Positions 1 through 14,606 of a stretch of DNA of 20,816 bases are shown in pieces; position 1 is the stretch's first letter, and each line of letters begins with the position of its first letter. This DNA is from a virus. Its lineage: Duplodnaviria > Heunggongvirae > Uroviricota > Caudoviricetes. The position numbers and the translations under genes are program-made. Where the stretch lies: positions 1 through 20,816 of the IMG/VR virus record IMGVR_UViG_2565956607_000008, one strand, 5' to 3'. Below the pieces are notes generated by a model, which was not told the origin of the DNA, searched no databases, and was given only the letters and a program-made list of their open reading frames with translations.

Positions 1-387
1 TCACAGGTATTTGGTTTCAATACCCTTGTAAACAGTTCTAAGCGTGTCTTCAGGCACTTTACCCACCAGCCCACGCAACAACGACAACGTTATGTTTACC
101 TTACGCAATGTCTTTACATATCTGGCGTTCGTCCTCCAGATCTTCAATGTTTCGTCTTTATCGCTGTGGTATGCTTCTAAATTGCGTTCTGTGACGTGAT
201 ACGCCTCTGTTTTAAACTGCTCAACAGGAATTCCCCAATCGTTGCGTAACAGCGTTAAAACGCGACTACGTTCGTGATTTCCGGCTTTCCTTAATATGTC
301 GTCAAACTCTTTTGGGGTAAGCTTCCTGCCACTTAGTAGGATATCGCGTATATTCGCGGCGACCTGAGAGCGTGTAAGAGTGCTCAT
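1..387 (-). CDS. Hypothetical protein of the P4/CP4-like island (128 aa)
   Basis: Complete ORF; its start overlaps the stop of the upstream 64-aa gene (ATGA-type overlap at 384..387); same strand as the island integrase. No recognisable motif. Confidence 0.45.
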   Translation of the reverse strand: MSTLTRSQVAANIRDILLSGRKLTPKEFDDILRKAGNHERSRVLTLLRNDWGIPVEQFKTEAYHVTERNLEAYHSDKDETLKIWRTNARYVKTLRKVNITLSLLRGLVGKVPEDTLRTVYKGIETKYL

Positions 388-578
388 TTTCGTCCCCCCA
401 GAAATCTGTCGGCAAATTGATCAAGGCTGGAGGCAAGCCACACCCGGCGCTTGCGTCCATTGATGGTCTGATTTATATAGGGAGGAAAGCTTCGGATATA
501 TCGCTTTAACTGATAGAAGCGTGACAGACAGACGCCAAGATATTCTGCTGCGTCTTTAGCGGTCAGGTAATTAATCAT
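384..578 (-). CDS. Small HTH DNA-binding protein, AlpA/excisionase-like (64 aa)
   Basis: Translation MINYLTAKDAAEYLGV... resembles the N-terminal helix-turn-helix of AlpA/Xis-type phage regulators; sits in a P4-like island. Confidence 0.5.
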   Translation of the reverse strand: MINYLTAKDAAEYLGVCLSRFYQLKRYIRSFPPYINQTINGRKRRVWLASSLDQFADRFLGGRK

Positions 579-659
579 TTTATTCCCTTACTGTTGTACC
601 AAAATGTAATATGGAGGAGACTTCCTGTCTCCCCAAATTACTCTACAATTTTTGTGCGA

Positions 660-851
660 TTAAATCAGATCTATTACTAAGTAATCATCGCCAGAGGCAA
701 TGCCGATAGCTTTTCCACCGCTGGTGGATTTCACATCATAAACCCAGGTGCTGGTGCTCACCTTTTGTGGCTCTGATCTAATCAGTGCCGCGAAGGTTTC
801 AAAATCAACATGGGTTACGTTCAGCTTTTGATTGGTAGGTTTCAACTGCAT
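660..851 (-). CDS. Hypothetical small protein (63 aa)
   Basis: ORF on the island strand between two AlpA-like genes; weak ribosome-binding site; no motif recognised. Confidence 0.35.
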   Translation of the reverse strand: MQLKPTNQKLNVTHVDFETFAALIRSEPQKVSTSTWVYDVKSTSGGKAIGIASGDDYLVIDLI

Positions 852-899
852 TCTTAATACCTAATAACGTATTGTTTGTATCCTGTTTGTTTCTGTTCT

Positions 900-1091
900 T
901 TAGTTACTACGCGATTCGGCTATACGTTGATCGATCCAGTCATCGATCTCGCTTTCAATAAAAGCTATTGCGCGAGCACCAATCTTGACTGATTGGGGGA
1001 ATTGTCCTCGGCTCATCAGAGCATATACCCACGCCTTGCTATAGCCAGTGCGTTTCAAAACCTCAGATAGCCGAATCAGCGACTTTTTCAT
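900..1091 (-). CDS. alpA: AlpA-family prophage transcriptional regulator (63 aa)
   Basis: Translation MKKSLIRLSEVLKRTGYSKAWVYALMSRGQFPQSVKIGARAIAFIESEIDDWI is the typical AlpA (CP4-57 regulatory protein) HTH pattern; typical position near a P4-type integrase. Confidence 0.7.
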   Translation of the reverse strand: MKKSLIRLSEVLKRTGYSKAWVYALMSRGQFPQSVKIGARAIAFIESEIDDWIDQRIAESRSN

Positions 1092-1247
1092 ATCTACCTC
1101 GTAATACGTTGCTTGACTATGTGAGATAGTAAATCATTGTTTTTTTAAGTTTTCTGTGAATTTGGAGAAAAAATTTTTGGGAATAGAATTACCCCAAATT
1201 GGGCGTTATTTTTTAGTTCTAACGCACAATTTGGGAACATCCTTCCT

Positions 1248-2003
1248 TTATTTTGGACGCTTTTTGGTTGCTTTTTTCTTAAATTTGGGGGCGTACTTAT
1301 CCAAAGCGTTCGTTAGCAATCTCCGAAATGTATCTGGGTGGGTATCGCTGTCTTCATCGTTCCCGAATATTATGTTGTTTTCTATTACTTGGGCACTAAC
1401 CCTATTGATACTAAGGTTTCCTCCACTATGGAAATCTTTGCTTGATTCAAATAAGGCAATCGCCATTCCGGCGATCATCTTTAAAGCCGTATCTTTTCCT
1501 CTCCAGTTTTGTTCTCTTTCTACTTTTTTTGACAGTGCTCCAATTTCTGGTTCGTTATCTGGAACATTCATATCCAGTTCTGGGAAGAAGTTCACAACCT
1601 CGGAGCGCTTGAAATAAAACGAATCGTAAGACCCATACCAATCATCCTCATCATCGTGATATAAAAAGTCTTCCCCTTTCCTAACGTTGAAAGTCCCTTC
1701 TTCCCCCGGTATCGGGCTCTCCCTGTATTCATGCCCCATAGCCAGAAGACCTAAAAACTCCACACACTGCTTTTCAAAGTCGTCATTAGTTGTAAAACCT
1801 GATACCCAATCGAACTGATAAAAGCCCAGCCCCCCTAAAGTATCTGGTTTAGCTTTGCTCAATCTGTAGTTACTTAAGATAGCGGCAGCGATCATTCTTT
1901 CATTTTCATTGTTTAGTCTTGCCAGTTCGCTGATCAGATTACCAAACCAGATTTTATCTTCTGACTCGTTATAAAACGCATCTAGTCCTGTCATCTTAGT
2001 CAC
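1248..2003 (-). CDS. Hypothetical cargo protein of unknown function (251 aa), translationally coupled to the integrase
   Basis: Start overlaps the integrase stop by 8 nt (1996..2003); acidic central region; no motif recognised. The antisense ORF 1156..1617 is judged spurious. Confidence 0.55.
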   Translation of the reverse strand: MTKMTGLDAFYNESEDKIWFGNLISELARLNNENERMIAAAILSNYRLSKAKPDTLGGLGFYQFDWVSGFTTNDDFEKQCVEFLGLLAMGHEYRESPIPGEEGTFNVRKGEDFLYHDDEDDWYGSYDSFYFKRSEVVNFFPELDMNVPDNEPEIGALSKKVEREQNWRGKDTALKMIAGMAIALFESSKDFHSGGNLSINRVSAQVIENNIIFGNDEDSDTHPDTFRRLLTNALDKYAPKFKKKATKKRPK

Positions 2004-3282
2004 GGCGTGTTCTCCTTCCGAACTCGTAAGGGCTTATATGTATTTCTCGATTGGCGTCCAGATAATCTGCCCACCATTGAAGCATTAGTTTGCGCTCTTC
2101 TAAGTAATCAGCCTTGTGCTTGTAGGCTCTTTTAACGTCTTTATATTCTTTGTGGCTCATCTGGCGCTCTACTGCGTCCTCCTGCCACAAACCGGACTCC
2201 ATCAGGGAACTACAGGCTGTGGCACGGAATCCATGTCCAGTTACGTCCTCTTGCGTGTTATAGCCCATTAAGCGTAATGCCTTGTTTACCGTGTTTTCAC
2301 TCATCACGCCTTTGGTGTTTCTTTCATTCGGAAACACAACATCGTAGCTTCCGCTTAGTTCTCTCAACTGCTTTACAATAGAAACAGCCTGACGGCTAAG
2401 AAGCACGATATGTTCGTCTTTTCCCGTTTTTGTGCCACGGGTGGAAAACCTCACACCATCGATAGGCTCTCTTTTTTTAGGGATAATCCACTCAGCCCGA
2501 TCAAGGTCAAACTCTTTCCAACGGGCAAACCTTAACTCGCTTGAACGAACAAATGTCAACATGGTTAGCTCAATGGCAAGGCGGGTAAGAGGATTACCTT
2601 TAAAGCTGCCCAATCGAGTGAAAAAGTCTGGTAAATCTCTGGGATGTAGTGCGGCATGATGCTTAGTTTCATATTGCATTAACCGGACATCGAGATCATT
2701 CGTGATGATTTCTGTCTTAATGCCGCTCAGACGGGCGCTATGTATGATGTCCTTAACTCGTTGTTTAAGTCGGTTGGCTGTATCGTGTTTCCCGGCGTCA
2801 TCTACCTTCTTAAACAAAGGTAAAATTGTCATCGCCTCCAGTTTGCGAATATCCGAAGTGCCAATGTGAGGGAAAATATACATTTCAAGGCTTCTAAGTA
2901 CGCGTTTTCGTTGGTCTTCGTTCCACATCTGGTGGCTTTCAACCCATTGACGTCCTATTGTCTCAAAAGTGAATGCGCCTTTTTCTTCTGCTTTTGCTGC
3001 TCTTTGCTCTGCTTTGGGATCTATCCCCTTGACTAACAACTTTTTGGCGTTGTCTCGTTTTTCTCTGGCGTCTTGTAAGCTAATGGTTGGATATACACCA
3101 AAAGCAAGTCTGTCTTCTTTCTTATCTGATGGGCGGCGATACTTCATTCGCCAATACTTCGACCCGGTCTGGGATACTTCAAGATAAAGACCACCACCAT
3201 CAGACAATTTATAAGTTTTGTCTCGTGGCTTAGCTGCTTTGCACTGACGGTCTGTTAATTTGTTGAGGGTATTTCTGGACAT
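1996..3282 (-). CDS. int: Tyrosine site-specific integrase, P4/CP4-57 type (428 aa)
   Basis: N-terminal DUF4102-like arm-binding pattern (LTDRQCKAAKP...DGGGLYLEV...YWRMKYR), C-terminal catalytic region with HGFRAT and later Y; lies 165 bp from the 3' end of the tRNA on the same strand. Confidence 0.9.
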   Translation of the reverse strand: MSRNTLNKLTDRQCKAAKPRDKTYKLSDGGGLYLEVSQTGSKYWRMKYRRPSDKKEDRLAFGVYPTISLQDAREKRDNAKKLLVKGIDPKAEQRAAKAEEKGAFTFETIGRQWVESHQMWNEDQRKRVLRSLEMYIFPHIGTSDIRKLEAMTILPLFKKVDDAGKHDTANRLKQRVKDIIHSARLSGIKTEIITNDLDVRLMQYETKHHAALHPRDLPDFFTRLGSFKGNPLTRLAIELTMLTFVRSSELRFARWKEFDLDRAEWIIPKKREPIDGVRFSTRGTKTGKDEHIVLLSRQAVSIVKQLRELSGSYDVVFPNERNTKGVMSENTVNKALRLMGYNTQEDVTGHGFRATACSSLMESGLWQEDAVERQMSHKEYKDVKRAYKHKADYLEERKLMLQWWADYLDANREIHISPYEFGRRTRRD

Positions 3283-3446
3283 GTTGGGGGCACATATACA
3301 ATCGAACCAGCAATGCCCCTAATTATGCCCCATAGATTTACTTGATTTCAATAGACGGAAATGGACGTCATGAGAATAAAATCTCTTTATTTTTATATGT
3401 TTACATGGGATTTATAGACAATGGTAGACGTTGGTGTACAGCGGGA

Positions 3447-3521
3447 TGGTGTCCCCTGCAGGAATCGAACCTGCAATTAGCCCTTAGGAGGGGCTCGTTA
3501 TATCCATTTAACTAAGGGGAC
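3447..3521 (-). tRNA. argW: tRNA-Arg (anticodon CCU)
   Basis: Reverse complement folds by hand into a 75-nt cloverleaf: 7-bp acceptor stem GTCCCCT/AGGGGAC, D-arm GTTA/TAAC, anticodon stem AGCCC/GGGCT with loop CTCCTAA (anticodon CCT), T-arm GCAGG-TTCGATT-CCTGC, discriminator A, CCA end. Confidence 0.9.
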
Positions 3522-3716
3522 ATAGAACTCACTGATTTTTAAGCGTTCAGCTTGTGTTGCATGTTATCCTATCATTCCCCGTACCATCAAGCATTTCATT
3601 CCTTTTATTTCCTTTCCGTTCGCATCAATTCGCTTAGAAAATCACTTCGTTCACTTGCCATTGCGTACACATTGAGTACAGAATGCAGAATTTCAGTGTG
3701 TACAGGATACAGAGCC

Positions 3717-4892
3717 GTGGCCCTTAGTGATACCAAACTCCGTAGCATCAATGCTAAGCCATACAGCGGCGCAGCTGAGGTCACAGATGGTGACGGGCTA
3801 AGTGTACGCATAACTCCCACAGGCACGATCACATTCCAGTTTCGTTATCGCTGGAACGGTAAGCCCGTTCGTCTCTCCATTGGCCGCTATCCCGCTATGT
3901 CTCTCAAGGAGGCGCGCGTAGTCGTCGGTGAGATGCGCGAATTGTACCTCAAGGGACTAAACCCGAAAAATTATTTTGCCAAAGAAGATGGCGAGTTGAC
4001 TCTCAAAGAGTGCCTGGATCAGTGGTGGGGTAAGTATGTTGAAACGCTGAAGCCGAACACTCAGACGCTGTACAAGTCCGTTGTGTACAACACGATGTAC
4101 ACAGAATTCCCGGACGCTCCGGTAGTTAACATTCCTATTTCTGCATGGGTGCGTTTCTTTGATAAGCAGGAAAAGAAGAACAGCAAAAAGGCCAGAGTGC
4201 TTCTTCTACAGCTACGTTCTGTAATGAACTGGTGTATCAGCCGCCAGTTGATCCCATCGTGCGAGGTCCTGAAGCTTAGCGTTAAGAGCATTGGGAAAAA
4301 ACCTGATGTGGGTAGCCGAGTTCTCACATATACCGAGTTGGCAAAAATCTGGCTGGCGCTGGAGAATAACAAGATCGTGACTTCCAACAAGGTGCTTCAT
4401 CAGCTGCTTTTGCTTTGGGGAGCCAGGCTATCAGAGCTGCGTCTGGCTACCGCCAGTGAATTTAACATGGATGATCTTATCTGGACGACGCCAGGAGAGC
4501 ATTCCAAGATGGGTAACGTTATCCGTCGCCCGGTGTTTGGCCAGGTGAAACCTTTTGTTGAAAGGCTCCTCAATGCTGGAAATGATGTTCTGTTTCCCGG
4601 CCAGGAACTGGACAAGCCAATAGATCGCTCATCAGCTAATCTCTATATGAAAAAGTTAAGGAATAAAATTGATATCCCAGAATGGCGAACACATGACTTC
4701 AGGCGCTCGCTGGTGACAAATTTATCAGGTGAAGGGGTTATGCCCCACGTCACCGAAAAGATGTTGGGGCATGAGTTGGGAGGAGTGATGGCGGTGTATA
4801 ACAAGCACGATTGGCTGGTAGAACAGAAAGAAGCATATGAGCTATATGCAGATAAAATTTTTTGGCATGTCAAGAAAATAAATGACCAATAA
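3717..4892 (+). CDS. int: Tyrosine integrase of the lambdoid prophage (about 391 aa; GTG start proposed)
   Basis: The ORF track gives 3552..4892, but the conserved integrase N-terminus (ALSDTKLRSINAKP...DGDGLSVRI...FQFRYRWNGK) begins at an in-frame GTG at 3717 preceded by AGGA; C-terminal catalytic region has HDFRRS. Start choice is uncertain. Confidence 0.8.
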   Translation: MALSDTKLRSINAKPYSGAAEVTDGDGLSVRITPTGTITFQFRYRWNGKPVRLSIGRYPAMSLKEARVVVGEMRELYLKGLNPKNYFAKEDGELTLKECLDQWWGKYVETLKPNTQTLYKSVVYNTMYTEFPDAPVVNIPISAWVRFFDKQEKKNSKKARVLLLQLRSVMNWCISRQLIPSCEVLKLSVKSIGKKPDVGSRVLTYTELAKIWLALENNKIVTSNKVLHQLLLLWGARLSELRLATASEFNMDDLIWTTPGEHSKMGNVIRRPVFGQVKPFVERLLNAGNDVLFPGQELDKPIDRSSANLYMKKLRNKIDIPEWRTHDFRRSLVTNLSGEGVMPHVTEKMLGHELGGVMAVYNKHDWLVEQKEAYELYADKIFWHVKKINDQ

Positions 4893-4928
4893 CTTTAGAC
4901 GTAAGTATTGAATTCTCTGGGGTATGAA

Positions 4929-6245
4929 ATGGAAATGATATTTAATGAAGATAAAGATATTGAAAATGCATTGCAGTGGCTATCTAAAACTCTACCAGAA
5001 CCTAATTCATTGTTTGATAGAATGTGTCTGGCACAAGAGAGTTATATTAAAGAATCGGCCTTGAAGGTTAATATTGGAAAGGAATCGAAAATAGAATGGC
5101 ATGGATGTGATGTTGTCGCAGGTTTTTTCTCTCAAGCTAAATCCTATCTTGATAATCGACGTTCTTATGATATTTCAGCTGCATCTAAAATACTTCCTTG
5201 GGTGAAACAACTTGGTGTTAATGTTGAATATCTTAACAATATTCCAGGTGCGGTAGAACGTGCTAAAAGGATGTTGGAAAGTTATACCGTTTATCCGGAT
5301 AATGCATTGTTTGAATTAATATTAGCAGGAAATTATGCGGCTAAAGGTTTCGATGTTGAGTTTATACCTGAGCAGAAAGGAATAGCTAAAACTCCTGAGT
5401 TTAAATGTAGCTTTGATGGTAAGGCTCTTTTTGTTGTTGAATGCAAAAGATTAAAAAAGGGGCAATACGCCCAACAAGAGGAGTCGGCTCATTCAACAAG
5501 AGCTTCTTTTATTGAATCTCGTGTACATCTGAAAAGAATGAGTGTCTGGATGGATGTCACATATAAATGTGAAGTAAATGAAACACCGGACGATTATCTT
5601 TTAAAACATTTATGTAATTATTATGGGAAAGAATATTCCTGGAGTGATGACTACGGTAGTGGTTTTATAAAGCCTGCAAATTTGCGTAGGGTGAATGATG
5701 ATATTAAATTGAACGGTTCTCTATCATTACACACCAAATTGGCAAGACTAATTAAAACATCTCCACTCGATGGTGAGTTTTACAATGTTTATGCGTTTGG
5801 TCGACCAGATGAACGAGATCCACGTTTTTTCTCTAAAATTAATTATGCAACATTACTGACATGGCGAAATGTAAGCGAGGTGTCATTAGAAAACAGGTCC
5901 AGGCATATCACTAAACATTTAAAAGAAATTGAAGATCAAATATCAAATAATGGACTTGGTGTAGGGCATTTAGTTATTGATGCTGACGTACAAAAAGATG
6001 TCGCTGATAAACGGAGGGAAAAAAATATTGAGGCTGCACTTTCTTTCCGGATAAAGTCCAAGCTTGTTCGGTTAAATATTCATTATCTTGTTCCTCGTGT
6101 TGATGAAGATAATTCGTGGCTGGTGGACGAAACTCTTGAATTTTTCAGCGGTGACGAGTTGATTAGTCATTTGTTTCCTGAGGTGAAATTATTTTCAGGG
6201 ATGGAACTTTTTGAAAATGATTTGCCTGCATGGCATCAGAAATGA
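4929..6245 (+). CDS. AT-rich cargo protein with a PD-(D/E)xK nuclease-like motif (about 438 aa)
   Basis: ATG at 4929 preceded by GGGG (ORF track uses TTG at 4908). Residues GFDVEF...x...FVVECKRL give a D...ExK pattern. Immediately downstream of the integrase and followed by an intrinsic terminator. Confidence 0.6.
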   Translation: MEMIFNEDKDIENALQWLSKTLPEPNSLFDRMCLAQESYIKESALKVNIGKESKIEWHGCDVVAGFFSQAKSYLDNRRSYDISAASKILPWVKQLGVNVEYLNNIPGAVERAKRMLESYTVYPDNALFELILAGNYAAKGFDVEFIPEQKGIAKTPEFKCSFDGKALFVVECKRLKKGQYAQQEESAHSTRASFIESRVHLKRMSVWMDVTYKCEVNETPDDYLLKHLCNYYGKEYSWSDDYGSGFIKPANLRRVNDDIKLNGSLSLHTKLARLIKTSPLDGEFYNVYAFGRPDERDPRFFSKINYATLLTWRNVSEVSLENRSRHITKHLKEIEDQISNNGLGVGHLVIDADVQKDVADKRREKNIEAALSFRIKSKLVRLNIHYLVPRVDEDNSWLVDETLEFFSGDELISHLFPEVKLFSGMELFENDLPAWHQK

Positions 6246-6252
6246 TTTTTAT

Positions 6253-6280
6253 GCCACCCAGGATAGGGTGGCTTTTTATT
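6253..6280 (+). terminator. Intrinsic terminator after the int-cargo unit
   Basis: Hairpin GCCACCC-AGGATA-GGGTGGC followed by TTTTTATT, directly after the stop at 6243..6245. Confidence 0.6.
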
Positions 6281-6469
6281 CTAACTATGGCTACCACTAA
6301 TCCCACCATTTTCAATCCATTGAAACACAGCTTTTCTGCTATATCGCGTAGGATAAGTGAGAACTGGATTTGGGAAATTATGATCTTTACGTAAACGCCA
6401 TACTGCTGTTTTTTTCTTGCCCAGTAATTCGAATACTTCTTTCTCTTCCATAAAATCTGTAGAAGTCAT
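6281..6469 (-). CDS. xis: Excisionase-like HTH protein (about 62 aa)
   Basis: Internal ATG at 6467..6469 with GAGGTG ribosome-binding site; translation MTSTDFMEEKEVFELLGKKKTAVWRLRKDHNFPNPV... is an AlpA/Xis-type HTH; located beside int. ORF-track start at 6544 would overlap the next gene. Confidence 0.6.
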   Translation of the reverse strand: MTSTDFMEEKEVFELLGKKKTAVWRLRKDHNFPNPVLTYPTRYSRKAVFQWIENGGISGSHS

Positions 6470-6476
6470 AAGCACC

Positions 6477-6998
6477 TCATTCAAAATTACCGTTAAAAAT
6501 ACACGTTCCACACCCACCGCGAGCCCCTTCAGTACAAACATCACAGCGATCTACTTTTTTACGAGGTCGTTCTTTGATGTGCAGCCTTGGTTCCCCGTCT
6601 TTTGGTTCCGGCCATGAGCGCTGCTTGTTCACCGCCAGCTTTTCGATCATCGCCTGGGTAATCTGCTCATCTGCAATACCGGAACGGTGCTGAGCGTCCC
6701 ACAACAGGAACTGCATATCCGCCCACTCTGAAAGGTCGTCTGGTGCCGCTGCGGCCTCCAGCGCTTCTTTGCTGAGGTGCTTCAGCGGGCCAACCGGGCC
6801 GACATTGCCGAAAGTTGCCTGTGACCACTCGGCGTGCTCGTTGCGTACCTGTTCTCTGTCCATTGCGTCCAGTGCTATGCGGGCCAGCGCTTCAGCTTCT
6901 TCTGCTGGCAGCATTACGTTGCTTCCAGCTCCATAGGTTCCACGCCATGATTTAATTTTTTCCAGGCGCTCTCTCGCCAGTTTGGTTATATCAGTCAT
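6477..6998 (-). CDS. MazG-like nucleotide pyrophosphohydrolase domain protein (DUF550-like) with C-terminal Cys cluster (about 173 aa)
   Basis: Start ATG 6996..6998 overlaps the upstream stop (ATGACTGA); EWADMQFLLWDA resembles the MazG-type E-x-x-D helix; C-terminal CDVC...CGTC. The longer ORF-track N-terminus overlaps a convincing neighbouring gene. Confidence 0.55.
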   Translation of the reverse strand: MTDITKLARERLEKIKSWRGTYGAGSNVMLPAEEAEALARIALDAMDREQVRNEHAEWSQATFGNVGPVGPLKHLSKEALEAAAAPDDLSEWADMQFLLWDAQHRSGIADEQITQAMIEKLAVNKQRSWPEPKDGEPRLHIKERPRKKVDRCDVCTEGARGGCGTCIFNGNFE

Positions 6999-7191
6999 CG
7001 GAGTTATCCTCGCAGCAGTAGTGAGCGCCGTCCGGGTCAGTACTTTTGAAACCGCAGATATCACACTCAATTTCGTCATGGGCTTCTTCATCGCATTCGT
7101 GACTTTCCGGATCGTCGGCTTTGTAATAACCGCCGCACAAATTGCAGCGGACTTCTGCCACATCGTCATAGTTAGTAGTCCCGGTTATCAT
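6991..7191 (-). CDS. Small highly acidic cysteine-rich protein (66 aa), zinc-ribbon-like
   Basis: Translation rich in D/E with CxxC...C...CxxC...CC; ATGA overlap with the upstream gene at 7188..7191. Confidence 0.55.
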   Translation of the reverse strand: MITGTTNYDDVAEVRCNLCGGYYKADDPESHECDEEAHDEIECDICGFKSTDPDGAHYCCEDNSDD

Positions 7192-7427
7192 TTGTCAGCC
7201 CCCTCATGTAGCTGCTCTGCGATGCACGAAAAAAAAGACTCCCGCGTATGACTTTTAAGAGCTGATGCAAACGCCGCGTTAAGAACGGCAGCATCACAGC
7301 CGTCATCGATATAGAGTGCGATTTTTTTCTCCAGGCGCGCTTTGGCTTCCTGCAGCTGCATACCCCGGCAGGCGCGCGGGATATATTCCGCAATCTGTGA
7401 AATAGCCTTTTCGTTCTGTTTAAACAT
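7188..7427 (-). CDS. Hypothetical early-operon protein (79 aa)
   Basis: ATG 7425..7427 with GAGGTGA ribosome-binding site; overlaps neighbouring genes at both ends. Confidence 0.5.
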   Translation of the reverse strand: MFKQNEKAISQIAEYIPRACRGMQLQEAKARLEKKIALYIDDGCDAAVLNAAFASALKSHTRESFFSCIAEQLHEGADK

Positions 7428-7623
7428 GCTTCACCTCGATAGGCTTGATGGTGTCGAGCAGCAGTCGGCGGCGCGTATTTTCTGCAAAGTGACGGCGCCC
7501 GGTTTCTTTGTGGTAAAACTCGTTTTTGCCGACGACCCACATCCGCTCTGTCTGGTGCAGTTTTTTTACCTTCGGACCGTCTTTGGTGATAACGGTGCCG
7601 GTATGGGTTTTTACGATTGTCAT
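7420..7623 (-). CDS. Hypothetical early-operon protein (about 67 aa)
   Basis: Internal ATG 7621..7623 preceded by GGGGAGG; ATGA overlap with the stop of the ParB-like gene. Confidence 0.5.
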   Translation of the reverse strand: MTIVKTHTGTVITKDGPKVKKLHQTERMWVVGKNEFYHKETGRRHFAENTRRRLLLDTIKPIEVKHV

Positions 7624-8405
7624 ACAGCCTCCCCAAGCACCCAACGGAGTGCGCTCGCATACTCACCCTCGGCTGATTCCAGGGCTTTTGTGATTTCTTT
7701 GCGGGTTTTCAGGCGCGGCTTTGCCTCGCCGAGGATCTGACGCTGACGCCGGGCTTTTTCATGGCCGGTTGTGCCAGCAGTTGCCGCTTCGATTTCAGAT
7801 ACCTTCTCCCGCTGCTCTTCAGGTTTAAGCGATGCCAGCTGACGCGCCTGGGTAACAGTGACCGTTCCGGACTCCACTGCATCGCGAACAGCCTGGGTGG
7901 CATCCAGCAGTGACAGCGTTGCGCGTACGGTCTGGACACTCACGCCAAACATCAGCGCTAAATCGTCCTCGTCGTGCCCGCGCTCCAGCGCATCAGCCAT
8001 TTTCTTTGCTCGGCCCAGTGGCGTATCTGCTTGGCGGATTTCGTTAGCACTTACCATCGCCTGCGCCATGCGAACGGCGGAGCCACGTTTAGCGACTGCC
8101 GGAACCAGTAACGGTTCTTTACCCTCTTTCAACAGTCGCTTGTTGGCTTCCAGTGTATGGCGCACACGCTGGCGACCATCGACTACACAAGACAGCCCTG
8201 TTTCCGGGTCTTTCCAGACGATAATCGGCTCAAGAACGCCCTGATCCATGATGTTCAGCACCATTGCCTCGCTGATAGGCAGGTGGATACGCTCATCGTA
8301 AAGCGGGTGCGTTTTGTCCGTAACCAAGTGCAGGTTTTCAGGTTCGAACGTTAAAACATTCGTTTTGCCGCTGGCGCCGTATACCACCTTTGAGTCTTTA
8401 GCCAT
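7620..8405 (-). CDS. ParB-like nuclease domain protein (261 aa)
   Basis: VVDGRQRVRHTLEA resembles the ParB/sulfiredoxin-fold arginine motif; common in lambdoid early regions. Confidence 0.65.
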   Translation of the reverse strand: MAKDSKVVYGASGKTNVLTFEPENLHLVTDKTHPLYDERIHLPISEAMVLNIMDQGVLEPIIVWKDPETGLSCVVDGRQRVRHTLEANKRLLKEGKEPLLVPAVAKRGSAVRMAQAMVSANEIRQADTPLGRAKKMADALERGHDEDDLALMFGVSVQTVRATLSLLDATQAVRDAVESGTVTVTQARQLASLKPEEQREKVSEIEAATAGTTGHEKARRQRQILGEAKPRLKTRKEITKALESAEGEYASALRWVLGEAV

Positions 8406-8704
8406 CAGAGAGCCTCTACGTTACGGAAGCTGGTGGGGCAAATTGCTTTCAAATCGCGCATTGCTTCGAGGACATGCAGATTTGTGCGCTTCTTGGTGTG
8501 TCGCTCGGTCAGACGATCACACTCTTTCGCCCAGGATTTGACCTCTGCGAGAAGGGCGTCACGTTCGGTTCGCGTCTGGCGCAGAGCTACATTCGAAACA
8601 TCGAGGACGGTAGCCAGTTCCCTGATGATTGCTGCCTGTGCTGGTGGCATAGTTTGGGCTATTTCGTACGCCTGTTTAATAAGTTGATTTGCTGTCTTAG
8701 CCAT
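8405..8704 (-). CDS. Hypothetical protein, first gene of the early-left operon (about 99 aa)
   Basis: Internal ATG 8702..8704 with GGAGAA ribosome-binding site (MAKTANQLIKQAYE...); ATGA overlap with the ParB-like gene start. Confidence 0.5.
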   Translation of the reverse strand: MAKTANQLIKQAYEIAQTMPPAQAAIIRELATVLDVSNVALRQTRTERDALLAEVKSWAKECDRLTERHTKKRTNLHVLEAMRDLKAICPTSFRNVEAL

Positions 8705-9007
8705 CTTTTGTTCTCCATCTGACGCGCTGCAACGCGTAAATTTAGGGTGCAGCAACCCAACCCATGAGAGTGGGTGAATAGCTGGTTAAAATTTCTTGCT
8801 GATGGGGAGCCGCCACTGCAATGGCGGCACGTTAGTTCTCCACACAACGGAAAGAGCACTGAAGCACTGGAAACTCACTTGACTAACACAGTGCTTTTTC
8901 CTGTTGTGTGCCGGGCTTCCACCGGCTCCCATCTGTTTTTAAAGCCACTCAGATATCGTCTGGGCTGCGTCGTCTCCGTGCATCACACGTTTTCGCGACC
9001 GCTGAAA

Positions 9008-9067
9008 TAAATCTAAAATAATTTAGTTTTTTGGTCAAGGTGAATAAACTAAATATTCTTAGTTTTC
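9008..9067. promoter_or_regulatory. Putative left operator/promoter region (OL/pL)
   Basis: Two 14-bp near-palindromes CTAAAATAATTTAG (9013..9026) and CTAAATATTCTTAG (9049..9062) sharing half-sites with the OR repeats; a leftward TTGACC / TAGATT-like promoter overlaps them. Confidence 0.45.
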
Positions 9068-9092
9068 ACCATTGATAGAGTAGAGGAAAGGA

Positions 9093-9737
9093 TTAGCGGC
9101 GCATCTGGCGGCGGTGTTCGACAACGACACCGATGATGGAAATTTTTTCAACAGCAGAGTTTAAAGCAGCAAAATCAGGGTTTAACGGGACCAATTCGAA
9201 AACCTCTTCACCATTTTCGTTGACACCCCTTGCACGGTATTTTTTAAAAGTGGCGTATTCACTACCGTTTTTGGCTACAACATAGTCCCCAGGACCTGGA
9301 CACAAGTCAGGATCCACAATGATAGTGTCTCCCTCTTTGAACTCTGGCTCCATAGATTTTCCACGTACCTTAAGAGCGAAGGTACCAAACGAATGAGCGC
9401 CGTTTGTTAAAATGTAATCCACGGCACCCTCTAAATTACGAGCATCACTTTCAGATGTCCAAGTTCCTGCTTGAACCCAACTTATGATAGGGATCTGCAT
9501 AGCGCCTAAGTTGCCAGGCGCTACATTGGAGAGTTCCTCTTTACCGGTGAGGAGAAAGTCCTCAGAAACACCAAAATACCGAGCTAATTTTGTCAGCGAG
9601 ACTCCTCCGGGTATGTTTTGGTCTTTCTCCCAGTATCCAATGGTGACATCTGTCACTCCAACAACTTTACCCAGTTGCTTCTGGGTAAGCTTACGATCCT
9701 TTCTTAATGATTTTAAACGACTTCCAAATGTGCTCAC
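9093..9737 (-). CDS. cI: CI-like prophage repressor (HTH_XRE N-terminus, S24 LexA-like peptidase C-terminus; 214 aa)
   Basis: N-terminal MSTFGSRLKSLRKDRKLTQKQLGKVVGV... HTH; C-terminal ...KVRGKSMEPEFKEGDTIIVDPD... Ser-Lys dyad region typical of autocleaving repressors; GTG start; divergent from cro. Confidence 0.85.
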   Translation of the reverse strand: MSTFGSRLKSLRKDRKLTQKQLGKVVGVTDVTIGYWEKDQNIPGGVSLTKLARYFGVSEDFLLTGKEELSNVAPGNLGAMQIPIISWVQAGTWTSESDARNLEGAVDYILTNGAHSFGTFALKVRGKSMEPEFKEGDTIIVDPDLCPGPGDYVVAKNGSEYATFKKYRARGVNENGEEVFELVPLNPDFAALNSAVEKISIIGVVVEHRRQMRR

Positions 9738-9760
9738 TGTGGTTCGCCATGTTATGAAAA

Positions 9761-9824
9761 CTAAATTATCTTAGCTTTAATTGACCTAAATTTGCTTTGG
9801 TCTTAATATCTAAATAAATTTAGG
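9761..9824. promoter_or_regulatory. Putative right operator region (OR) with three repressor-binding palindromes
   Basis: CTAAATTATCTTAG (9761..9774), CTAAATTTGCTTTGG (9786..9800), CTAAATAAATTTAG (9810..9823), spaced about 24 bp apart between the divergent cI and cro starts. Confidence 0.5.
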
Positions 9825-9831
9825 AGGGTGT

Positions 9832-10041
9832 ATGACAACAACAGAGTTAGAAACGTTCTTCGGAACCCCCAACAAGGCAGCAGACTTCTTCGGTGTTTCT
9901 CCTGAGGCTTTTTATCAATGGCGAAAACGACCGGGCAGTTTGATCCCAAAAGGTCGTGCTGCAGAAGCTGCATATCGTACTAATGGGCAGCTTGTTTTTC
10001 GACCTGAACTTTACCAAAAGGCTACAGATTCAGCTGCTTGA
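9832..10041 (+). CDS. cro: Cro-like small DNA-binding regulator (69 aa)
   Basis: ATG preceded by AGGAGG at 9821..9826; divergent from cI across the operator region; small basic HTH-like protein. Confidence 0.7.
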   Translation: MTTTELETFFGTPNKAADFFGVSPEAFYQWRKRPGSLIPKGRAAEAAYRTNGQLVFRPELYQKATDSAA

Positions 10042-10186
10042 AAGTAACTACAAATCGAATTTTAAAGGGGTAGGTGTGACAAAAAAAATTGAATCAGAGG
10101 TGATAAAGCGGTTGCAAGCGCTCAACCCTGAAACGGTAAGGCTGGATGAAATGAATCGAGTAGTGACTCTGATCGGGTGGACCTTA

Positions 10187-10510
10187 TCAGAAAAACTTCC
10201 AGACACCTATAGCGATGAGAACAAAGGCAAGGATATCGAACACGACTCCGATTCGCTTGGGATTTCTCGGGTAACAAGAAATGGTTGCTGTAACCCGACC
10301 GAGGCCGTCGTACTGGAGCATTTCCTGGTAGGGGTGGTTAATCCACTCACCAATGCCCCAAAAAAAGACGCCAAGGGAAACCAGTGCTGTAGGGCCAGGA
10401 GGATATGCAGAAAGAACTCCAGTACCGTTCAGCAGAAAAACGAATGCACCAGCGACAATCAAAACTTTGTACCAGTAGTCCAGAGTCAATTTAGACAAAG
10501 GGTTATTCAT
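10187..10510 (-). CDS. Small integral membrane protein (107 aa, about 3 predicted TM helices), possible moron
   Basis: Strongly hydrophobic segments with aromatic belts. The overlapping plus-strand ORF 9956..10546 translates to Cys/Arg-rich text typical of antisense noise. Weak ribosome-binding site, so uncertain. Confidence 0.4.
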   Translation of the reverse strand: MNNPLSKLTLDYWYKVLIVAGAFVFLLNGTGVLSAYPPGPTALVSLGVFFWGIGEWINHPYQEMLQYDGLGRVTATISCYPRNPKRIGVVFDILAFVLIAIGVWKFF

Positions 10511-10568
10511 TTAATACACCGGCTGTTCCGTGGGCTAAGAAAGTGATTTTAAGCGAAGGGTTATCAAC

Positions 10569-11036
10569 ATGGTAGAACAAAAGCAAAGTTTGAAAGATGT
10601 AGTCAAGGCTATGTGTAAGTCCATACATGGTGGGCGTGAGGCTATGGCTGGCGCGCTAGGCATGACCTTAACGCAGTTCAATAACAACCTTTATGAGAAA
10701 AATGGTTGTCGTTTCTTCGAAGTCAGCGAACTGGAAGCGATGGAGGACATTTCCAACACGTCGTTACTGGCTGACTACTTCGCTCGCCGTCGTGGTGCTC
10801 TGCTGGTGGATGTTCCGCACCTGGAAGAACTGGACCGCGTGGACTTATTTAGCCGGGCAATGCGTACCTCTGCCGCCAGGGGGCAGGTTGATCAGATTAT
10901 CGAACAGGCGCTTGAAGATGGCGTTATTGAAAGGCACGAGGCCGAAGAAATCATGGTGCATCACCGCCGTCACCTGGCAGCTCGTGAAGAAGAGATTGCC
11001 GCAATCATCACGCTTTTTTCACGCAAAAAGAAGTGA
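10569..11036 (+). CDS. CII-like phage regulatory protein (CP76/YdaT-like family; 155 aa)
   Basis: Position downstream of cro; N-terminal pattern (LKDVVKAMCKSIHGGREAMAGALGMTLTQFNN) recalled as the phage CP76-type CII family. Recollection, not a search. Confidence 0.6.
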   Translation: MVEQKQSLKDVVKAMCKSIHGGREAMAGALGMTLTQFNNNLYEKNGCRFFEVSELEAMEDISNTSLLADYFARRRGALLVDVPHLEELDRVDLFSRAMRTSAARGQVDQIIEQALEDGVIERHEAEEIMVHHRRHLAAREEEIAAIITLFSRKKK

Positions 11037-11273
11037 CGCCAGCGAGTTGCAGCTCCTGGCGTCGTGGCGTGTCGTTATCAGTGGAGATTACTAACGCATG
11101 AACAGTTTATCAACACAGTACCGCAGGTCGCAACTTGTAGCGCGTCCGGTTCCTGGTGGATCAGGGCCGGTGCAGTTCGTGTATGGGGTAAGAGTACCAG
11201 GCGGGTTCGAGCCTGTCTGCTACCAGTTTGCTCAGTGGGTGGTAGGGGACTTTAACGGCCAGGCGGAGAAAGT

Positions 11274-11453
11274 ATGCGAGAACTTAACCGATGGTTCAGA
11301 GATCACTACGGTGTCCCGGTCAGGGTCATACGCTGGGAGCCCCAAACACAGCGCGTTATATACCTGCGTGAAGGGTACGAGCATGAATGCTTTAGCCCCC
11401 TCGAGCAATTCAGACGTAAATTCAGAGAAATAAAGGACGATCATGAGCACTAA
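11274..11453 (+). CDS. Small basic protein (59 aa), below the ORF-track size cut-off
   Basis: ATG 11274 preceded by GGAG; translation MRELNRWFRDHYGVPVRVIRWEPQTQRVIYLREGYEHECFSPLEQFRRKFREIKDDHEH; its stop overlaps the start of the replication gene. The alternative ORF 11098..11433 looks low-complexity. Confidence 0.35.
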   Translation: MRELNRWFRDHYGVPVRVIRWEPQTQRVIYLREGYEHECFSPLEQFRRKFREIKDDHEH

Positions 11454-12396
11454 ATTAACAGGATACGTCTGGGACGCTTGTGCATCTTCGGGGATGAAGC
11501 TATCCAGCGTGGCAATCATGGCGCGCCTGGCTGACTTCAGCAACGATGAGGGTGTTTGCTGGCCTTCTATTGCGACCATATCCCGTCAGATTGGCGCTGG
11601 TGAAAGTACTGTCAGAACGGCGATAGCTGCACTTGAGAAAGAGGGGTGGCTCACTCGTACGCAGCGCCGCAACGGCAACCGTAATGCATCGAACGTCTAC
11701 CAGCTCAACGTTTCCAAACTACAGAAAGCGGCATTTTCTCACCTGTCAGTTTCTGACACATCAAAATCTGACGCGTCAAAATCTGATGCGTCAAAAATTG
11801 ACCCCTCAAAATTTGATGCGTCGGAATCCATCAAAAAAACCGGTTTTGACCCGTCAGAATCTGGTGGGGATCCGTCAGTAAAATCAACTACTGATCCATC
11901 AGATATAAATCCTTCTTGTCCGGACGCTTCGCAACCGGACGAACAGGGCTCTGCTGATGAATTTCTGTCACGACATCCTGACGCGGTGGTGTACAGCGCT
12001 GCAAAGCGGCAGTGGGGCAGCCAGGACGATTTAACCTGCGCTGAGTTCATTTGGGGAAAAATTATCAGCATGTACGAACTGGCGGCTGAAAGTGATGGTG
12101 AGGTAGTTCGCCCTAAAGAACCAAACTGGACCGCATGGGCGAATGAGGTTCGCCTGATGGTGATGCAGGACGGGAGAACCCATAAACAAATTTGCTCACT
12201 TTTCAAGCGCGCCAACAAAGATTCGTTCTGGTGTAAAAACGTGCTCAGCCCGTCGAAGCTGCGGGAAAAATGGGATGAGCTGTCGTTAAAACTATCTGCT
12301 CCACTCAATAGCTCCCGCCAGGAATCGTCCATTTCGCGAGCCAGCTTCGACGGGGTTGATTACTCATTGCCAGAAAACTCGGGGTTCCGCACATGA
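11443..12396 (+). CDS. Replication initiator, lambda O-like architecture (317 aa)
   Basis: N-terminal winged-helix-like region, then pentapeptide repeats (SKSDA-like) encoded by 15-bp DNA iterons, then C-terminal domain; stop overlaps the dam start (ATGA). Confidence 0.7.
   Translation: MSTKLTGYVWDACASSGMKLSSVAIMARLADFSNDEGVCWPSIATISRQIGAGESTVRTAIAALEKEGWLTRTQRRNGNRNASNVYQLNVSKLQKAAFSHLSVSDTSKSDASKSDASKIDPSKFDASESIKKTGFDPSESGGDPSVKSTTDPSDINPSCPDASQPDEQGSADEFLSRHPDAVVYSAAKRQWGSQDDLTCAEFIWGKIISMYELAAESDGEVVRPKEPNWTAWANEVRLMVMQDGRTHKQICSLFKRANKDSFWCKNVLSPSKLREKWDELSLKLSAPLNSSRQESSISRASFDGVDYSLPENSGFRT
11751..11835. repeat. Iteron array inside the replication gene (putative prophage origin)
   Basis: Four to five tandem 15-bp units TCAAAATCTGACGCG / TCAAAATCTGATGCG / TCAAAAATTGACCCC / TCAAAATTTGATGCG containing TGACGCGTCA-type palindromes, followed by an A-rich stretch. 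Confidence 0.55.
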
Positions 12397-13202
12397 GCAA
12401 GCCATTTCTGAAATGGGCTGGTGGAAAGTATACCCAGCTGGCTGACCTGTTCGTGCATATCCCGGCAGGGAAACGCCTGATAGATCCATTCGTTGGTGGT
12501 GGGTCAGTATTCCTGAACAGCGAAAAGCACGCAGATTACCTGCTGGCGGACGTTAACCCGGACCTGATTAATCTGTATCAGATGTTAGCGGTCGTGCCGG
12601 ATGAAGTGGAATTGAAGGCCCGCTGGATGTTCGAGCACATGCGGTCACCAGATGGTTATGAGCTGATCCGTTCCGAGTTCAACGCTCAGACGCTGGATGC
12701 TACTGAACGCGCAGCTGCATTCCTGTATCTCAACCGGCATTGCTTCAATGGCCTGATGCGCTACAACCAGGCTAACAAATTCAATGTGGGCTGGGGAGGC
12801 TACAAGGCTCCGTATTACCCGATGGATGAGATGAAAGCCTTCGCGGCTATGGCGCATAACTGCGTATTCATGACTGCTGATTACCGTCGGACAATCAGCC
12901 TGGCCGGGAAAGGGGATGTGGTTTACTGCGATCCGCCTTACGAACCGATGCCGGGAACAGCCGGATTCACTGCCTACGCCGCTGGTGGGTTTAACTGGGA
13001 GAACCAGGTAGACCTGGCGAAGCAATGTGTATCTGCCTTTCACCGCGGGGCTCGGGTAGTAATTTCTAACTCATCCGCACCGAAGGTTCTCGATCTGTAC
13101 CGGGAGCATGGTTTTAACCTGCAATTCATCAAAGCGCGCCGTTCGATCTCCTGCAAAAGCAGTACGCGGGAAGTCGCCAAAGATGTCGTGGCTATCCTGT
13201 GA
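12393..13202 (+). CDS. dam: DNA adenine methyltransferase, Dam family (N6-adenine, orphan; 269 aa)
   Basis: Motif FLKWAGGK near the N-terminus and catalytic DPPY (VYCDPPYEP); no adjacent restriction endonuclease gene. Confidence 0.9.
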   Translation: MSKPFLKWAGGKYTQLADLFVHIPAGKRLIDPFVGGGSVFLNSEKHADYLLADVNPDLINLYQMLAVVPDEVELKARWMFEHMRSPDGYELIRSEFNAQTLDATERAAAFLYLNRHCFNGLMRYNQANKFNVGWGGYKAPYYPMDEMKAFAAMAHNCVFMTADYRRTISLAGKGDVVYCDPPYEPMPGTAGFTAYAAGGFNWENQVDLAKQCVSAFHRGARVVISNSSAPKVLDLYREHGFNLQFIKARRSISCKSSTREVAKDVVAIL

Positions 13203-13226
13203 GCTGCCTGCCGTGGAGAAAATGAC

Positions 13227-14207: not shown

Positions 14208-14225
14208 TTCAGTGGAGATGAGTTA

Positions 14226-14570: not shown

Positions 14571-14594
14571 AGTCTTAATGTGACTTCAGTTAAC
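14562..14594. terminator. Perfect 13-bp-stem hairpin (33-bp palindrome) between convergent Q and the reverse-strand cassette
   Basis: GTTAACTGAAGTC-TTAATGT-GACTTCAGTTAAC; overlaps the Q stop codon; only weak U-tracts on either side, so it may be a bidirectional terminator or a protein-binding palindrome. Confidence 0.4.
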
Positions 14595-14606
14595 ATTAAC
14601 GGCTAA

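What the first reader, a model, noticed from the sequence alone, without database searches (positions are those of the whole stretch)
1996..4892. tRNA-Arg(CCU) flanked by two divergent tyrosine integrase genes: compound integration hotspot
A P4-type integrase lies 165 bp past the tRNA 3' end on the same strand, the usual arrangement for tRNA-targeting islands. A second, lambdoid-type integrase starts about 195 bp from the tRNA 5' end and points away from it, heading a full prophage. Integration on the 5' side of a tRNA gene is unusual; the prophage att site may lie in the short 3522..3716 spacer, or the tRNA may be carried on mobile DNA. Two independent elements abut one tRNA gene.
Basis: partly seen in the sequence, partly recalled or inferred. 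Interest (0 to 1): 0.5.

Follow-up and report, generated by a model that had tools for sequence, protein, structure and literature searches.

The report
Two mobile elements share argW tRNA
One E. coli arginine tRNA gene (argW) has a small genomic island recombined into its 3' end and a prophage recombined into its 5' end, the prophage bringing a replacement 5' end and promoter; the reverse-orientation site is uncommon in general but already recorded for Shiga-toxin phages, so this is an ordinary new example.

Summary
tRNA-Arg(CCU) (argW, 3447..3521, minus strand) lies between two intact tyrosine integrase genes: 1996..3282 (-) and 3717..4892 (+).

These are two independent elements, because E. 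coli genomes exist that carry each one alone.
- **Island A** (about 10.3 kb) uses the usual 3'-end site, a 23-bp repeat of tRNA nt 53-75.
- **Prophage B** does not use the 3522..3716 spacer, and it does not carry a whole tRNA. Its att core is the first 23 nt of the tRNA gene (3499..3521).

Three comparisons support this core. The empty site (attB) has it. The far end of a 97-98% identical prophage (strain Ec42) has the displaced native 5' fragment next to yfdC. Two free phage genomes have arm-core-spacer-int with no other tRNA sequence.

The spacer is phage DNA. It holds a sigma-70-like promoter (TTGATG-18 nt-TAACAT, 39 nt upstream of the tRNA) that is conserved in 25 of 25 relatives from about 15 genera. 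Only 29 bp of the gene are certainly chromosomal.

The second integrase is not lambda-type. It has the P4-type arm domain.

The same att site and the same two-integrase layout are already annotated for argW-integrating Stx2a phages. This is a new member of a known kind, of low to moderate interest.

The parts
1..3446 (-). Right-hand 3.4 kb of island A. The whole element is about 10.3 kb in genomes that show it complete, and the window starts inside it.
   Evidence: Window 1..3522 is 100% identical to many E. coli genomes where the element lies between the csc sucrose genes and argW. The island is bounded by 23-bp repeats at L002:1139-1161 and 11447-11469.
1996..3282 (-). Integrase A, P4-type tyrosine recombinase, 428 aa
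   Evidence: PF13356, PF22022 and PF00589 all score above their cut-offs. It is identical to RefSeq WP_023149819. R, HxxR and Y align with those of IntB.
3447..3521 (-). argW, tRNA-Arg(CCU), a three-part mosaic gene
   Evidence: ARAGORN; cloverleaf fold at -29 kcal/mol; the parts are defined in the rows below.
3447..3469 (-). Island A att repeat = tRNA nt 53-75 (TGGTGTCCCCTGCAGGAATCGAA)
   Evidence: The same 23 bp recur at the far end of the island in L002 and L004, and flank homology to an island-free genome resumes there.
3470..3498 (-). The only 29 bp of the gene (tRNA nt 24-52) that lie outside both att repeats and are therefore certainly chromosomal
   Evidence: Derived from the two att blocks.
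3499..3521 (-). Prophage B att core = tRNA nt 1-23 (TATATCCATTTAACTAAGGGGAC on the + strand). Base 3517 is G (tRNA C5), where native E. coli has A (U5).
   Evidence: Three-way comparison of attL, attB and attR. The same core is annotated as the att duplication in Stx2a phage records. attP in free phages contains it.
3561..3590 (-). Phage-borne sigma-70-like promoter facing the tRNA: -35 TTGATG (3590..3585), 18-nt spacer, -10 TAACAT (3566..3561), 39 nt upstream of tRNA nt 1
   Evidence: TTGnnn-18-TAnnnT lies at this fixed distance in 25 of 25 aligned relatives. The surrounding sequence is poorly conserved. Function is inferred, not shown.
3655..3709 (+). Candidate int promoter (TTGCCA 3655..3660, 18 nt, CAGAAT 3679..3684) overlapped by three conserved GTAC repeats (3665, 3676, 3700), which are likely arm-type Int sites
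   Evidence: Consensus scan; conservation in the alignment; similar GTAC motifs in the opposite arm next to attR and in attP. Their roles are inferred.
3717..4892 (+). Integrase B, 391 aa tyrosine recombinase with a P4-type arm domain
   Evidence: PF13356 and PF00589. R237, K264, H326, R329, H352 and Y361 are invariant in the family alignment. It is 99% identical to a cluster of 1129 sequences.
3522..19810 (+). Visible part of prophage B, a lambdoid-organised, Klebsiella-like siphophage: int, early genes, S24 repressor, cro, replication, Dam, Q, lysis
   Evidence: About 100% identical to the prophage of E. coli p10A, which continues with terminase, portal, capsid and tail genes.

Best explanation
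The window shows the E. coli argW gene occupied at both ends by two unrelated integrative elements.

**Island A.** Island A (about 10.3 kb) recombined with the 3' end of the gene in the usual way. Its attP carried tRNA nt 53-75, so the gene is regenerated. The displaced 3' fragment sits at the far end of the island, next to the csc genes, and its integrase gene follows the tRNA on the same strand.

**Prophage B.** Prophage B uses the reverse geometry. Its attP carries a copy of tRNA nt 1-23 (acceptor 5' strand plus D arm) about 195 bp upstream of its integrase gene and facing away from it. Strand exchange took place inside the 18-bp stretch TATATCCATTTAACTAAG. As a result:
- The native promoter and the native 5' 23 nt are left at the far end of the prophage, next to yfdC.
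- The functional gene now has a phage-derived 5' end, which carries a U5-to-C5 change.
- The gene is most likely transcribed from a phage-borne sigma-70-type promoter 39 nt upstream, giving a leader of roughly 30 nt that RNase P would remove.

**Independence of the two elements.** The two att cores do not overlap (29 bp lie between them), so the two elements can integrate and excise independently.

**Shown versus inferred.** The att cores, the independence of the elements, the composition of attP and the conservation of the promoter motif are shown. Promoter activity, the RNase P step, the arm-site role of the GTAC repeats and present-day excision competence are inferred.
For: - **Independent occupancy.** Genomes exist with island A only, with prophage B only, and one with both (Ec42).
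- **Junctions of prophage B.** attB is ...GGCTCGT TATATCCATTTAACTAAGAGGAC AATGCGG... The window attL keeps the tRNA side and then switches to phage sequence after ...AAGGGGAC. The Ec42 attR joins a non-tRNA phage arm to TATATCCATTTAACTAAGAGGAC plus the native upstream region and yfdC.
- **attP in free phage genomes.** Hafnia phage yong2 and vB_EcoP_phi296 have arm-23-nt core-spacer-int, with no further tRNA sequence. An Erwinia typographi contig shows the same.
- **Public annotation.** Public Stx2a phage records annotate the same 24-25 bp as attL/attR or as the insertion duplication. A preprint states a 24-bp att at argW.
- **Family-wide layout.** All 23 loci with an IntB relative of at least 68% identity in which ARAGORN found a tRNA have tRNA-Arg(CCU) divergent from int, with its 5' end 173-196 bp upstream.
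- **Promoter motif.** TTGnnn-18-TAnnnT lies 39 nt upstream of the tRNA in 25 of 25 sequences (38 nt in two; 29 nt in one that has a deletion).
- **Sister clade.** The 55%-identical sister clade sits 181 bp divergent from the 5' end of sbcB, so the geometry is a lineage trait.
- **Island A.** A 23-bp 3'-end repeat lies at its far end.
- **tRNA folding.** Both tRNA versions fold as cloverleaves.
Against: - The far end of prophage B in this very genome lies outside the window. attR was read in Ec42, a 97-98% identical relative, and in more distant Stx2a phages. The 100% identical prophage in p10A has lost its far end to an IS26 rearrangement.
- The strict consensus scan did not report the tRNA-facing promoter, which matches 8 of 12 consensus positions where the tool requires 9. 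Its support is conservation only, with no transcript data.
- An IS2-like element interrupts the late region at 19811, so this copy may no longer be a viable phage.
- Because the island A repeat is identical to the native sequence, it cannot be determined which bases of nt 53-75 are island-derived.
Confidence: 0.88

Rival explanations
1. The prophage integrates in the intergenic spacer 3522..3716, between argW and yfdC, and leaves the tRNA gene untouched.
For: The integrase starts 195 bp from the tRNA and no tRNA fragment is visible in the window on that side.
Against: In the empty site only 75 bp separate argW from yfdC, and none of that sequence resembles 3522..3716. Homology to the empty site ends inside the tRNA at nt 1, and it resumes at the far end of the prophage with tRNA nt 23-1. 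The spacer is present in free phage genomes and is conserved with the integrase across genera.
Confidence: 0.02
2. The whole tRNA gene is phage cargo, and island A inserted into that phage-borne copy.
For: Some 'phage' records (vB_EcoS-733R5, Klebsiella phage 1 LV-2017) contain the complete tRNA next to int. Lambdoid phages often carry rare-codon Arg tRNAs (general knowledge).
Against: The vB_EcoS-733R5 record also contains the host csc genes, so it is a prophage cut-out and not a virion genome. Free phage genomes with internal attP have only 23 nt of tRNA. In p10A the tRNA 3' side continues directly into native chromosomal flank.
Confidence: 0.03
3. The arrangement is a decayed relic: one or both integrases or att sites are inactive, and the 'hotspot' is just a fossil of old insertions.
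For: An IS2-like element interrupts prophage B at 19811. The att core carries one mismatch between attL (G at 3517) and attR of the relative (A). There are no excision data.
Against: Both integrases are full length with catalytic residues present. Both elements are about 100% identical to copies in other genomes, and each occurs alone, which implies recent independent mobility. The single core mismatch lies outside the 18-bp stretch where exchange occurred, and it matches the C5 form seen in many relatives' tRNAs.
Confidence: 0.15

Closest known systems
argW-integrating Stx2a phages of STEC (VT2phi_272 HQ424691 / Oslovirus PA2 group; Stx2a prophage of O157:H7 TW14359)
   Same: The integrase gene plus spacer is about 76% identical in DNA over 97-98% of the query. 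The att core is the same 23-25 bp, equal to the 5' end of argW, and is annotated as attL/attR. int is divergent from the tRNA in the same way. The VT2phi_272 record also has a second integrase on the 3' side of the tRNA. The literature places the prophage between yfdC and argW/intS (PMC8309913).
   Different: Prophage B carries no stx genes. The rest of its genome is Klebsiella-like siphophage (HK97-type head, P27-type terminase in p10A) rather than short-tailed Sepvirinae. Its core carries C5 where the Stx phages carry the E. coli U5. The 3'-side neighbour here is a 10.3-kb island, not a CPS-53/KplE1-type element.
5'-end ('reversed orientation') integration into tRNA genes, as cited to Zhao & Williams 2002 and others
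   Same: The element carries the 5' portion of the target gene rather than the 3' portion, so it must also supply the promoter. The displaced fragment lies upstream. This mode is described as 'considerably less frequent' than 3' integration (PMC6563490). Islander accepts islands with an upstream 5' fragment (PMC4383910).
   Different: I could not read the original paper (not held), so I cannot compare organism, integrase family or core position. What is shown here is a whole enterobacterial integrase clade with this geometry and a conserved promoter.
CPS-53/KplE1 (IntS) and P4-like islands at tRNA 3' ends
   Same: Island A follows this pattern. It has a P4-type integrase co-oriented just downstream of the tRNA, small AlpA/HTH-type genes, and a direct repeat of the tRNA 3' end. 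KplE1 also uses argW (PMC2951348, listed).
   Different: Island A is a different element. Its integrase is 428 aa, its repeat is 23 bp, and it has a rolling-circle-replication-associated gene and other cargo. I made no direct sequence comparison with IntS.
sbcB-integrating prophages (site used by Stx2c phages)
   Same: The integrase is 55% identical to IntB. It sits 181 bp from, and divergent to, the 5' end of the target gene.
   Different: The target is a protein-coding gene, not a tRNA. The att is reported as 12 bp. I did not map its core.

Membership tests
Tyrosine recombinases with P4-type (DUF4102 / Arm-DNA-bind_3) arm domain | C-terminal catalytic domain PF00589 above the gathering score | tested here: met
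   IntA 62.0 bits and IntB 64.6 bits against a cut-off of 27.1.
Tyrosine recombinases with P4-type (DUF4102 / Arm-DNA-bind_3) arm domain | N-terminal arm-binding domain PF13356 | tested here: met
   IntA 100.3 bits and IntB 68.2 bits against a cut-off of 27.
Tyrosine recombinases with P4-type (DUF4102 / Arm-DNA-bind_3) arm domain | Catalytic residues R, K, HxxR, H/W, Y present | tested here: met
   IntB R237, K264, H326, R329, H352 and Y361 are invariant in a 13-sequence alignment. In IntA, the R (VRSSELR), HGFR, SH and RAY motifs align with them.
   The Pfam scan at E <= 0.001 reports only PF13356 and PF00589 for IntB. NCBIfam gives only a weak PRK09692 integrase-domain match, the same model as for IntA.
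argW 5'-end integration module (as in Stx2a phages at argW) | att core equal to the first about 23-25 nt of argW at the int-proximal junction | tested here: met
   Window 3499..3521 compared with attB and with the annotated attL of HQ424691 and LC645442.
argW 5'-end integration module (as in Stx2a phages at argW) | Displaced native 5' fragment plus native promoter at the far junction, next to yfdC | tested here: inconclusive
   Met in the 97-98% identical Ec42 prophage (L005:21844-21866) and in Stx2a phages. The far end in the window's own genome lies outside the window, and it is lost to IS26 in the 100% identical p10A copy.
argW 5'-end integration module (as in Stx2a phages at argW) | Integrase homologous to, and arranged like, that of the Stx2a phages | tested here: met
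   About 76% DNA identity over int plus spacer. The tRNA is divergent, 173-196 bp upstream, in 23 loci.
argW 5'-end integration module (as in Stx2a phages at argW) | attP of the free element holds the core only | tested here: met
   Hafnia phage yong2 and vB_EcoP_phi296. These are relatives, not this phage itself.
Canonical 3'-end tRNA island (island A) | Direct repeat of the tRNA 3' end at the far boundary, with the integrase next to the intact gene | tested here: met
   A 23-bp repeat at L002:1139-1161 and 11447-11469, and likewise in L004. These genomes are 100% identical to window 1..3522. The far end itself lies outside the window.
Phage-encoded complete tRNA gene | Whole tRNA present in the unintegrated phage genome | tested here: not met
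   Only 23 nt are present in attP. Records that show a whole tRNA include host csc genes.
Functional replacement promoter for the tRNA | Transcription of argW starts in phage DNA in lysogens | not testable with these tools
   Only motif conservation is available. It needs 5'-RACE, dRNA-seq or a reporter fusion.

The most novel reading that the evidence does not exclude
IntB and its sbcB-targeting sister clade may form an integrase lineage that systematically recombines with the 5' ends of host genes and replaces their promoters. At argW this would put the only AGG-decoding tRNA under a phage-supplied, possibly differently regulated promoter. That could benefit AGG-rich mobile genes: 5.6-9.0 AGG per 1000 codons here, against roughly 1-2 per 1000 in E. 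coli genes (the latter figure from memory). It would also leave a host-range 'scar' in the acceptor stem (U5 to C5). Such a D-arm/5'-end site would be a fourth tRNA sublocation class beyond the three 3'-side classes.
Probability: 0.15. Interest if true: 0.5.

Novelty: new member of a known kind. Interest (0 to 1): 0.25.

Why it matters
- **For annotation.** Island and prophage finders that look only for 3' tRNA fragments will misplace this prophage's boundary. They may call the tRNA phage cargo, as several public 'phage genome' records effectively do.
- **For biology.** One 75-bp gene can serve as two non-overlapping attachment sites. A lysogen of this phage group expresses argW from foreign 5' sequence and, most likely, a foreign promoter.
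- **Limits.** The same site is used by medically important Stx2a phages, so the conserved promoter and arm motifs defined here apply to them too. None of this changes current understanding of site-specific integration.

Tried and rejected
1. I looked for the far end of the 100% identical prophage in strain p10A. It is truncated by IS26 and joined to wcaM, so I used Ec42 instead.
2. I took vB_EcoS-733R5 as a possible virion genome showing a whole tRNA in attP. I rejected it because the record contains host csc genes.
3. The strict promoter and terminator scan found no tRNA-facing promoter in either the phage spacer or the native upstream region. The promoter call rests on a 25-sequence alignment instead.
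4. Literature searches for explicit statements such as '5 end of argW', 'upstream of argW' or 'argW promoter' returned nothing in the held library. Zhao & Williams 2002 and Williams 2002 are not held.
5. A synthetic attP query found no phage record with contiguous coverage of 80% or more. It did lead to yong2 and phi296, where attP could be read directly.
6. PADLOC found nothing for the orphan genes next to int or for the low-GC three-gene block.
7. Relatives of 63% identity or less have no tRNA and no core upstream of int. The one I followed up targets sbcB.
Full report
**1. Observation**

ARAGORN finds a single tRNA in the window, tRNA-Arg(CCU), at 3447..3521 on the minus strand.

On the 3' side of the tRNA, 164 bp away and on the same strand, ORF 1996..3282 encodes a 428-aa protein. 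It has Arm-DNA-bind_3 (PF13356), Phage_int_M and Phage_integrase domains.

On the 5' side the long ORF 3552..4892 is best read from GTG 3717, giving 391 aa. This is the RefSeq call in an identical copy. It starts 195 bp from the tRNA 5' end, is divergent from the tRNA, and has PF13356 plus PF00589.

The two proteins are 25% identical end to end. Both belong to the P4-type arm-domain group. The label 'lambdoid-type' fits the organisation of the prophage but not its integrase. The finding's coordinates and distances are correct.

**2. Where the window comes from, and independence of the two elements**

The window is the E. coli argW locus.

- Many complete E. coli genomes match window 1..3522 at 100% and then continue directly into yfdC, mlaA and fadL. 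They carry the left element only, for example WCHEC005784.
- Strains p10A and p10B match window 3447..19810 at about 100%. To the left of the tRNA they have the native flank and the csc sucrose genes. They carry the right element only.
- Both kinds of match break exactly at the ends of the tRNA gene.
- Only one of 5426 complete genomes (Ec42) has the same junction with both elements.

**3. Island A: the usual 3'-end mode**

I compared an island-free genome (L001) with island-bearing ones (L002, L004). The 23-bp sequence TGGTGTCCCCTGCAGGAATCGAA (tRNA nt 75-53 as read on the plus strand) occurs twice. One copy is in the intact gene. The other is about 10.3 kb away, next to the csc flank, and flank homology resumes there.

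The integrase follows the tRNA on the same strand. Small HTH/AlpA-like genes and a rolling-circle-replication-associated gene follow. This is the canonical P4-like layout.

**4. Prophage B: the reverse, 5'-end mode**

I compared three sequences.

- The empty site reads ...GGCTCGT-TATATCCATTTAACTAAGAGGAC-AATGCGGCATGAG..., that is, the tRNA 5' end followed by the native upstream region.
- The window reads ...GGCTCGT-TATATCCATTTAACTAAGGGGAC-ATAGAACTCACTG....
- The far end of the Ec42 prophage reads ...TGTTTTAAAAC-TATATCCATTTAACTAAGAGGAC-AATGCGGCATGAG..., followed by yfdC.

The att core is therefore the first 23 nt of the tRNA gene: the acceptor 5' strand and most of the D arm. Exchange took place within the 18 bp TATATCCATTTAACTAAG.

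The phage supplied the outermost bases. These include a C at tRNA position 5 (window 3517 = G), where native E. coli has U. This turns a U5-G68 wobble pair into a C-G pair. Both versions fold as cloverleaves, at -29 versus -26 kcal/mol. Lysogens (window, p10A, Ec42) have C5. Non-lysogens have U5, as does the argW copy beside VT2phi_272, an Stx2a prophage whose att core carries U5.

**5. attP**

Some 'phage genome' records show a complete tRNA next to int. At least one of them (vB_EcoS-733R5) also contains the host csc genes, so it is a prophage cut-out.

Two records have int internal to the phage genome: Hafnia phage yong2 and the Stx phage vB_EcoP_phi296. In both, the 23-nt core is flanked on one side by the spacer and int, and on the other by a non-tRNA arm carrying GTGTACAT...GAGTAC motifs. 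An Erwinia typographi contig looks the same.

The phage therefore carries only the 5' 23 nt, not a tRNA gene.

**6. The spacer is phage DNA with a replacement promoter**

Integration separates argW from its native promoter, which I read by eye as TTACCC-17 nt-TATACT just upstream. That promoter stays at attR.

I aligned the tRNA-to-int interval from the window, VT2phi_272 and 23 loci from about 15 genera of Enterobacterales.

- **Motif conservation.** TTG is invariant and TA..AT is nearly so, within otherwise poorly conserved sequence.
- **Spacing and position.** Every one of the 25 sequences has TTGnnn-18 nt-TAnnnT. It ends 39 nt before tRNA nt 1 in 22 of them, 38 nt in two, and 29 nt in one that has a deletion.
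- **Window coordinates.** In the window this is TTGATG (3590..3585) and TAACAT (3566..3561) on the minus strand.
- **Strict scan.** The strict consensus scan missed it because it matches 8 of 12 positions where the tool requires 9.

I infer that it drives the chimeric tRNA with a leader of about 30 nt removed by RNase P. That step is not shown.

Nearer to int there is a conserved candidate int promoter (TTGCCA-18-CAGAAT, 3655..3684). It is overlapped by three conserved GTAC repeats. Counterparts of these repeats occur in the other arm. They are plausibly arm-type Int sites, but this is inference.

**7. A lineage trait**

IntB has close relatives across Enterobacterales. A scan of one genome per species gave 80 loci.

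- In all 23 loci at 68% identity or more where ARAGORN found a tRNA, it is tRNA-Arg(CCU), divergent from int, with its 5' end 173-196 bp upstream.
- One more locus is attP-like, and two lack enough flank to judge.
- Relatives at 63% identity or less have no tRNA upstream. The E. coli one (55% identity) sits 181 bp divergent from the start of sbcB, which is the same geometry on a protein-coding gene.
- The phage-borne acceptor-stem bases vary among genera and mostly match the host 3' strand. Occasional wobble pairs occur, for example in L018 and L031.

**8. What is already known**

argW is a standard Stx2a prophage site in O157:H7 clade 8 and other STEC. In strain TW14359 the prophage lies between yfdC and argW/intS (PMC8309913).

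GenBank record HQ424691 (VT2phi_272) annotates attL as 25 bp at the 5' end of the tRNA and attR at the far end. It also shows a second integrase on the other side of the tRNA. LC645442 and its sister records annotate the same 24 bp as the insertion duplication. A preprint states a 24-bp att at argW (10.1101/2024.03.06.583675).

Recombination with the 5'-distal part of tRNA genes is described as considerably less frequent than with the 3' part, but it is documented (PMC6563490, citing Zhao & Williams 2002 and others). Islander accepts upstream 5' fragments (PMC4383910).

In the held library I found no explicit statement about the 5' end of argW or its promoter being replaced. That is only a weak negative.

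Among 5426 complete E. coli genomes, 229 carry an IntB-family gene over at least 80% of its length. Most of these match at 60-80% DNA identity, and the ones sampled (about 77%) are O157:H7 and other STEC-type strains.

**9. Verdict**

This leaves a gene in which only 29 bp (3470..3498) lie outside both att repeats.

The feature is a new instance of a known integration module, here on a non-Stx, Klebsiella-like prophage paired with a different 3' island. It is not a new kind of system.

Three caveats apply.
- The window's own attR is out of view.
- Promoter function is inferred from conservation.
- An IS2-like insertion at 19811 may have disabled this prophage copy.

AGG codons are enriched in the mobile genes, at 5.6-9.0 per 1000. 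This allows the speculative idea that control of this rare-codon tRNA matters to the elements. I rate that idea as unlikely to be demonstrable from sequence alone.

Noticed in passing
window 19811..20816: An IS3-family, IS2-like element (terminal repeat TGGATTTGCCCCTATATTTCCAGACACCTGTCATCACTTAACCC; 301-aa rve transposase at 19822..20727, minus strand) interrupts prophage B after the lysis genes. The otherwise identical p10A prophage continues uninterrupted at this point. The window ends inside the IS.
   Followed up: partly
window 14607..16482 (minus strand): A low-GC (33-42%) block of three genes, antisense to the late operon, lies between the Q antiterminator and the holin. The proteins are 366 aa (no domain hit), 105 aa (DUF4325 STAS-like) and 153 aa. 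None has a PADLOC hit. This position and composition are typical of a moron or candidate defence cassette.
   Followed up: partly
window 4908..6245 (+): A 445-aa ORF (438 aa from the annotated start at 4929) lies immediately after IntB. It has low GC (about 35-37%) and no Pfam or PADLOC hit. It is replaced by a different gene in related prophages (Ec42, vB_EcoS-733R5).
   Followed up: partly
L003:25234..30700 (E. coli p10A, NZ_CP049081): The far end of the 100% identical prophage in p10A is replaced by IS26 joined to a wcaM fragment and ISKpn26. An IS26-mediated rearrangement links the argW prophage to the colanic acid/O-antigen region.
   Followed up: no
L002:1162..8000 (island A outside the window): The unseen part of island A carries an 821-aa plus 330-aa pair of hypothetical proteins, a serine recombinase and a rolling-circle-replication-associated protein. 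It could be a satellite or mobilisable island with a cargo system. I did not analyse it.
   Followed up: no
L018 and L031 (Xenorhabdus sp. BG5; an uncultured Enterobacterales MAG): In some lysogens the phage-supplied acceptor 5' strand does not match the host 3' strand perfectly and creates G-U wobbles (U2-G71 in L018, U3-G70 in L031). This suggests the replaced 5' end records the previous host of the phage.
   Followed up: partly
L091:395..3179 (E. coli CUPS SST 5/1): The 55%-identical sister integrase sits 181 bp divergent from the start codon of sbcB. The reversed (5'-end) geometry therefore extends to a protein-coding target. I did not map the core or any replacement promoter.
   Followed up: partly
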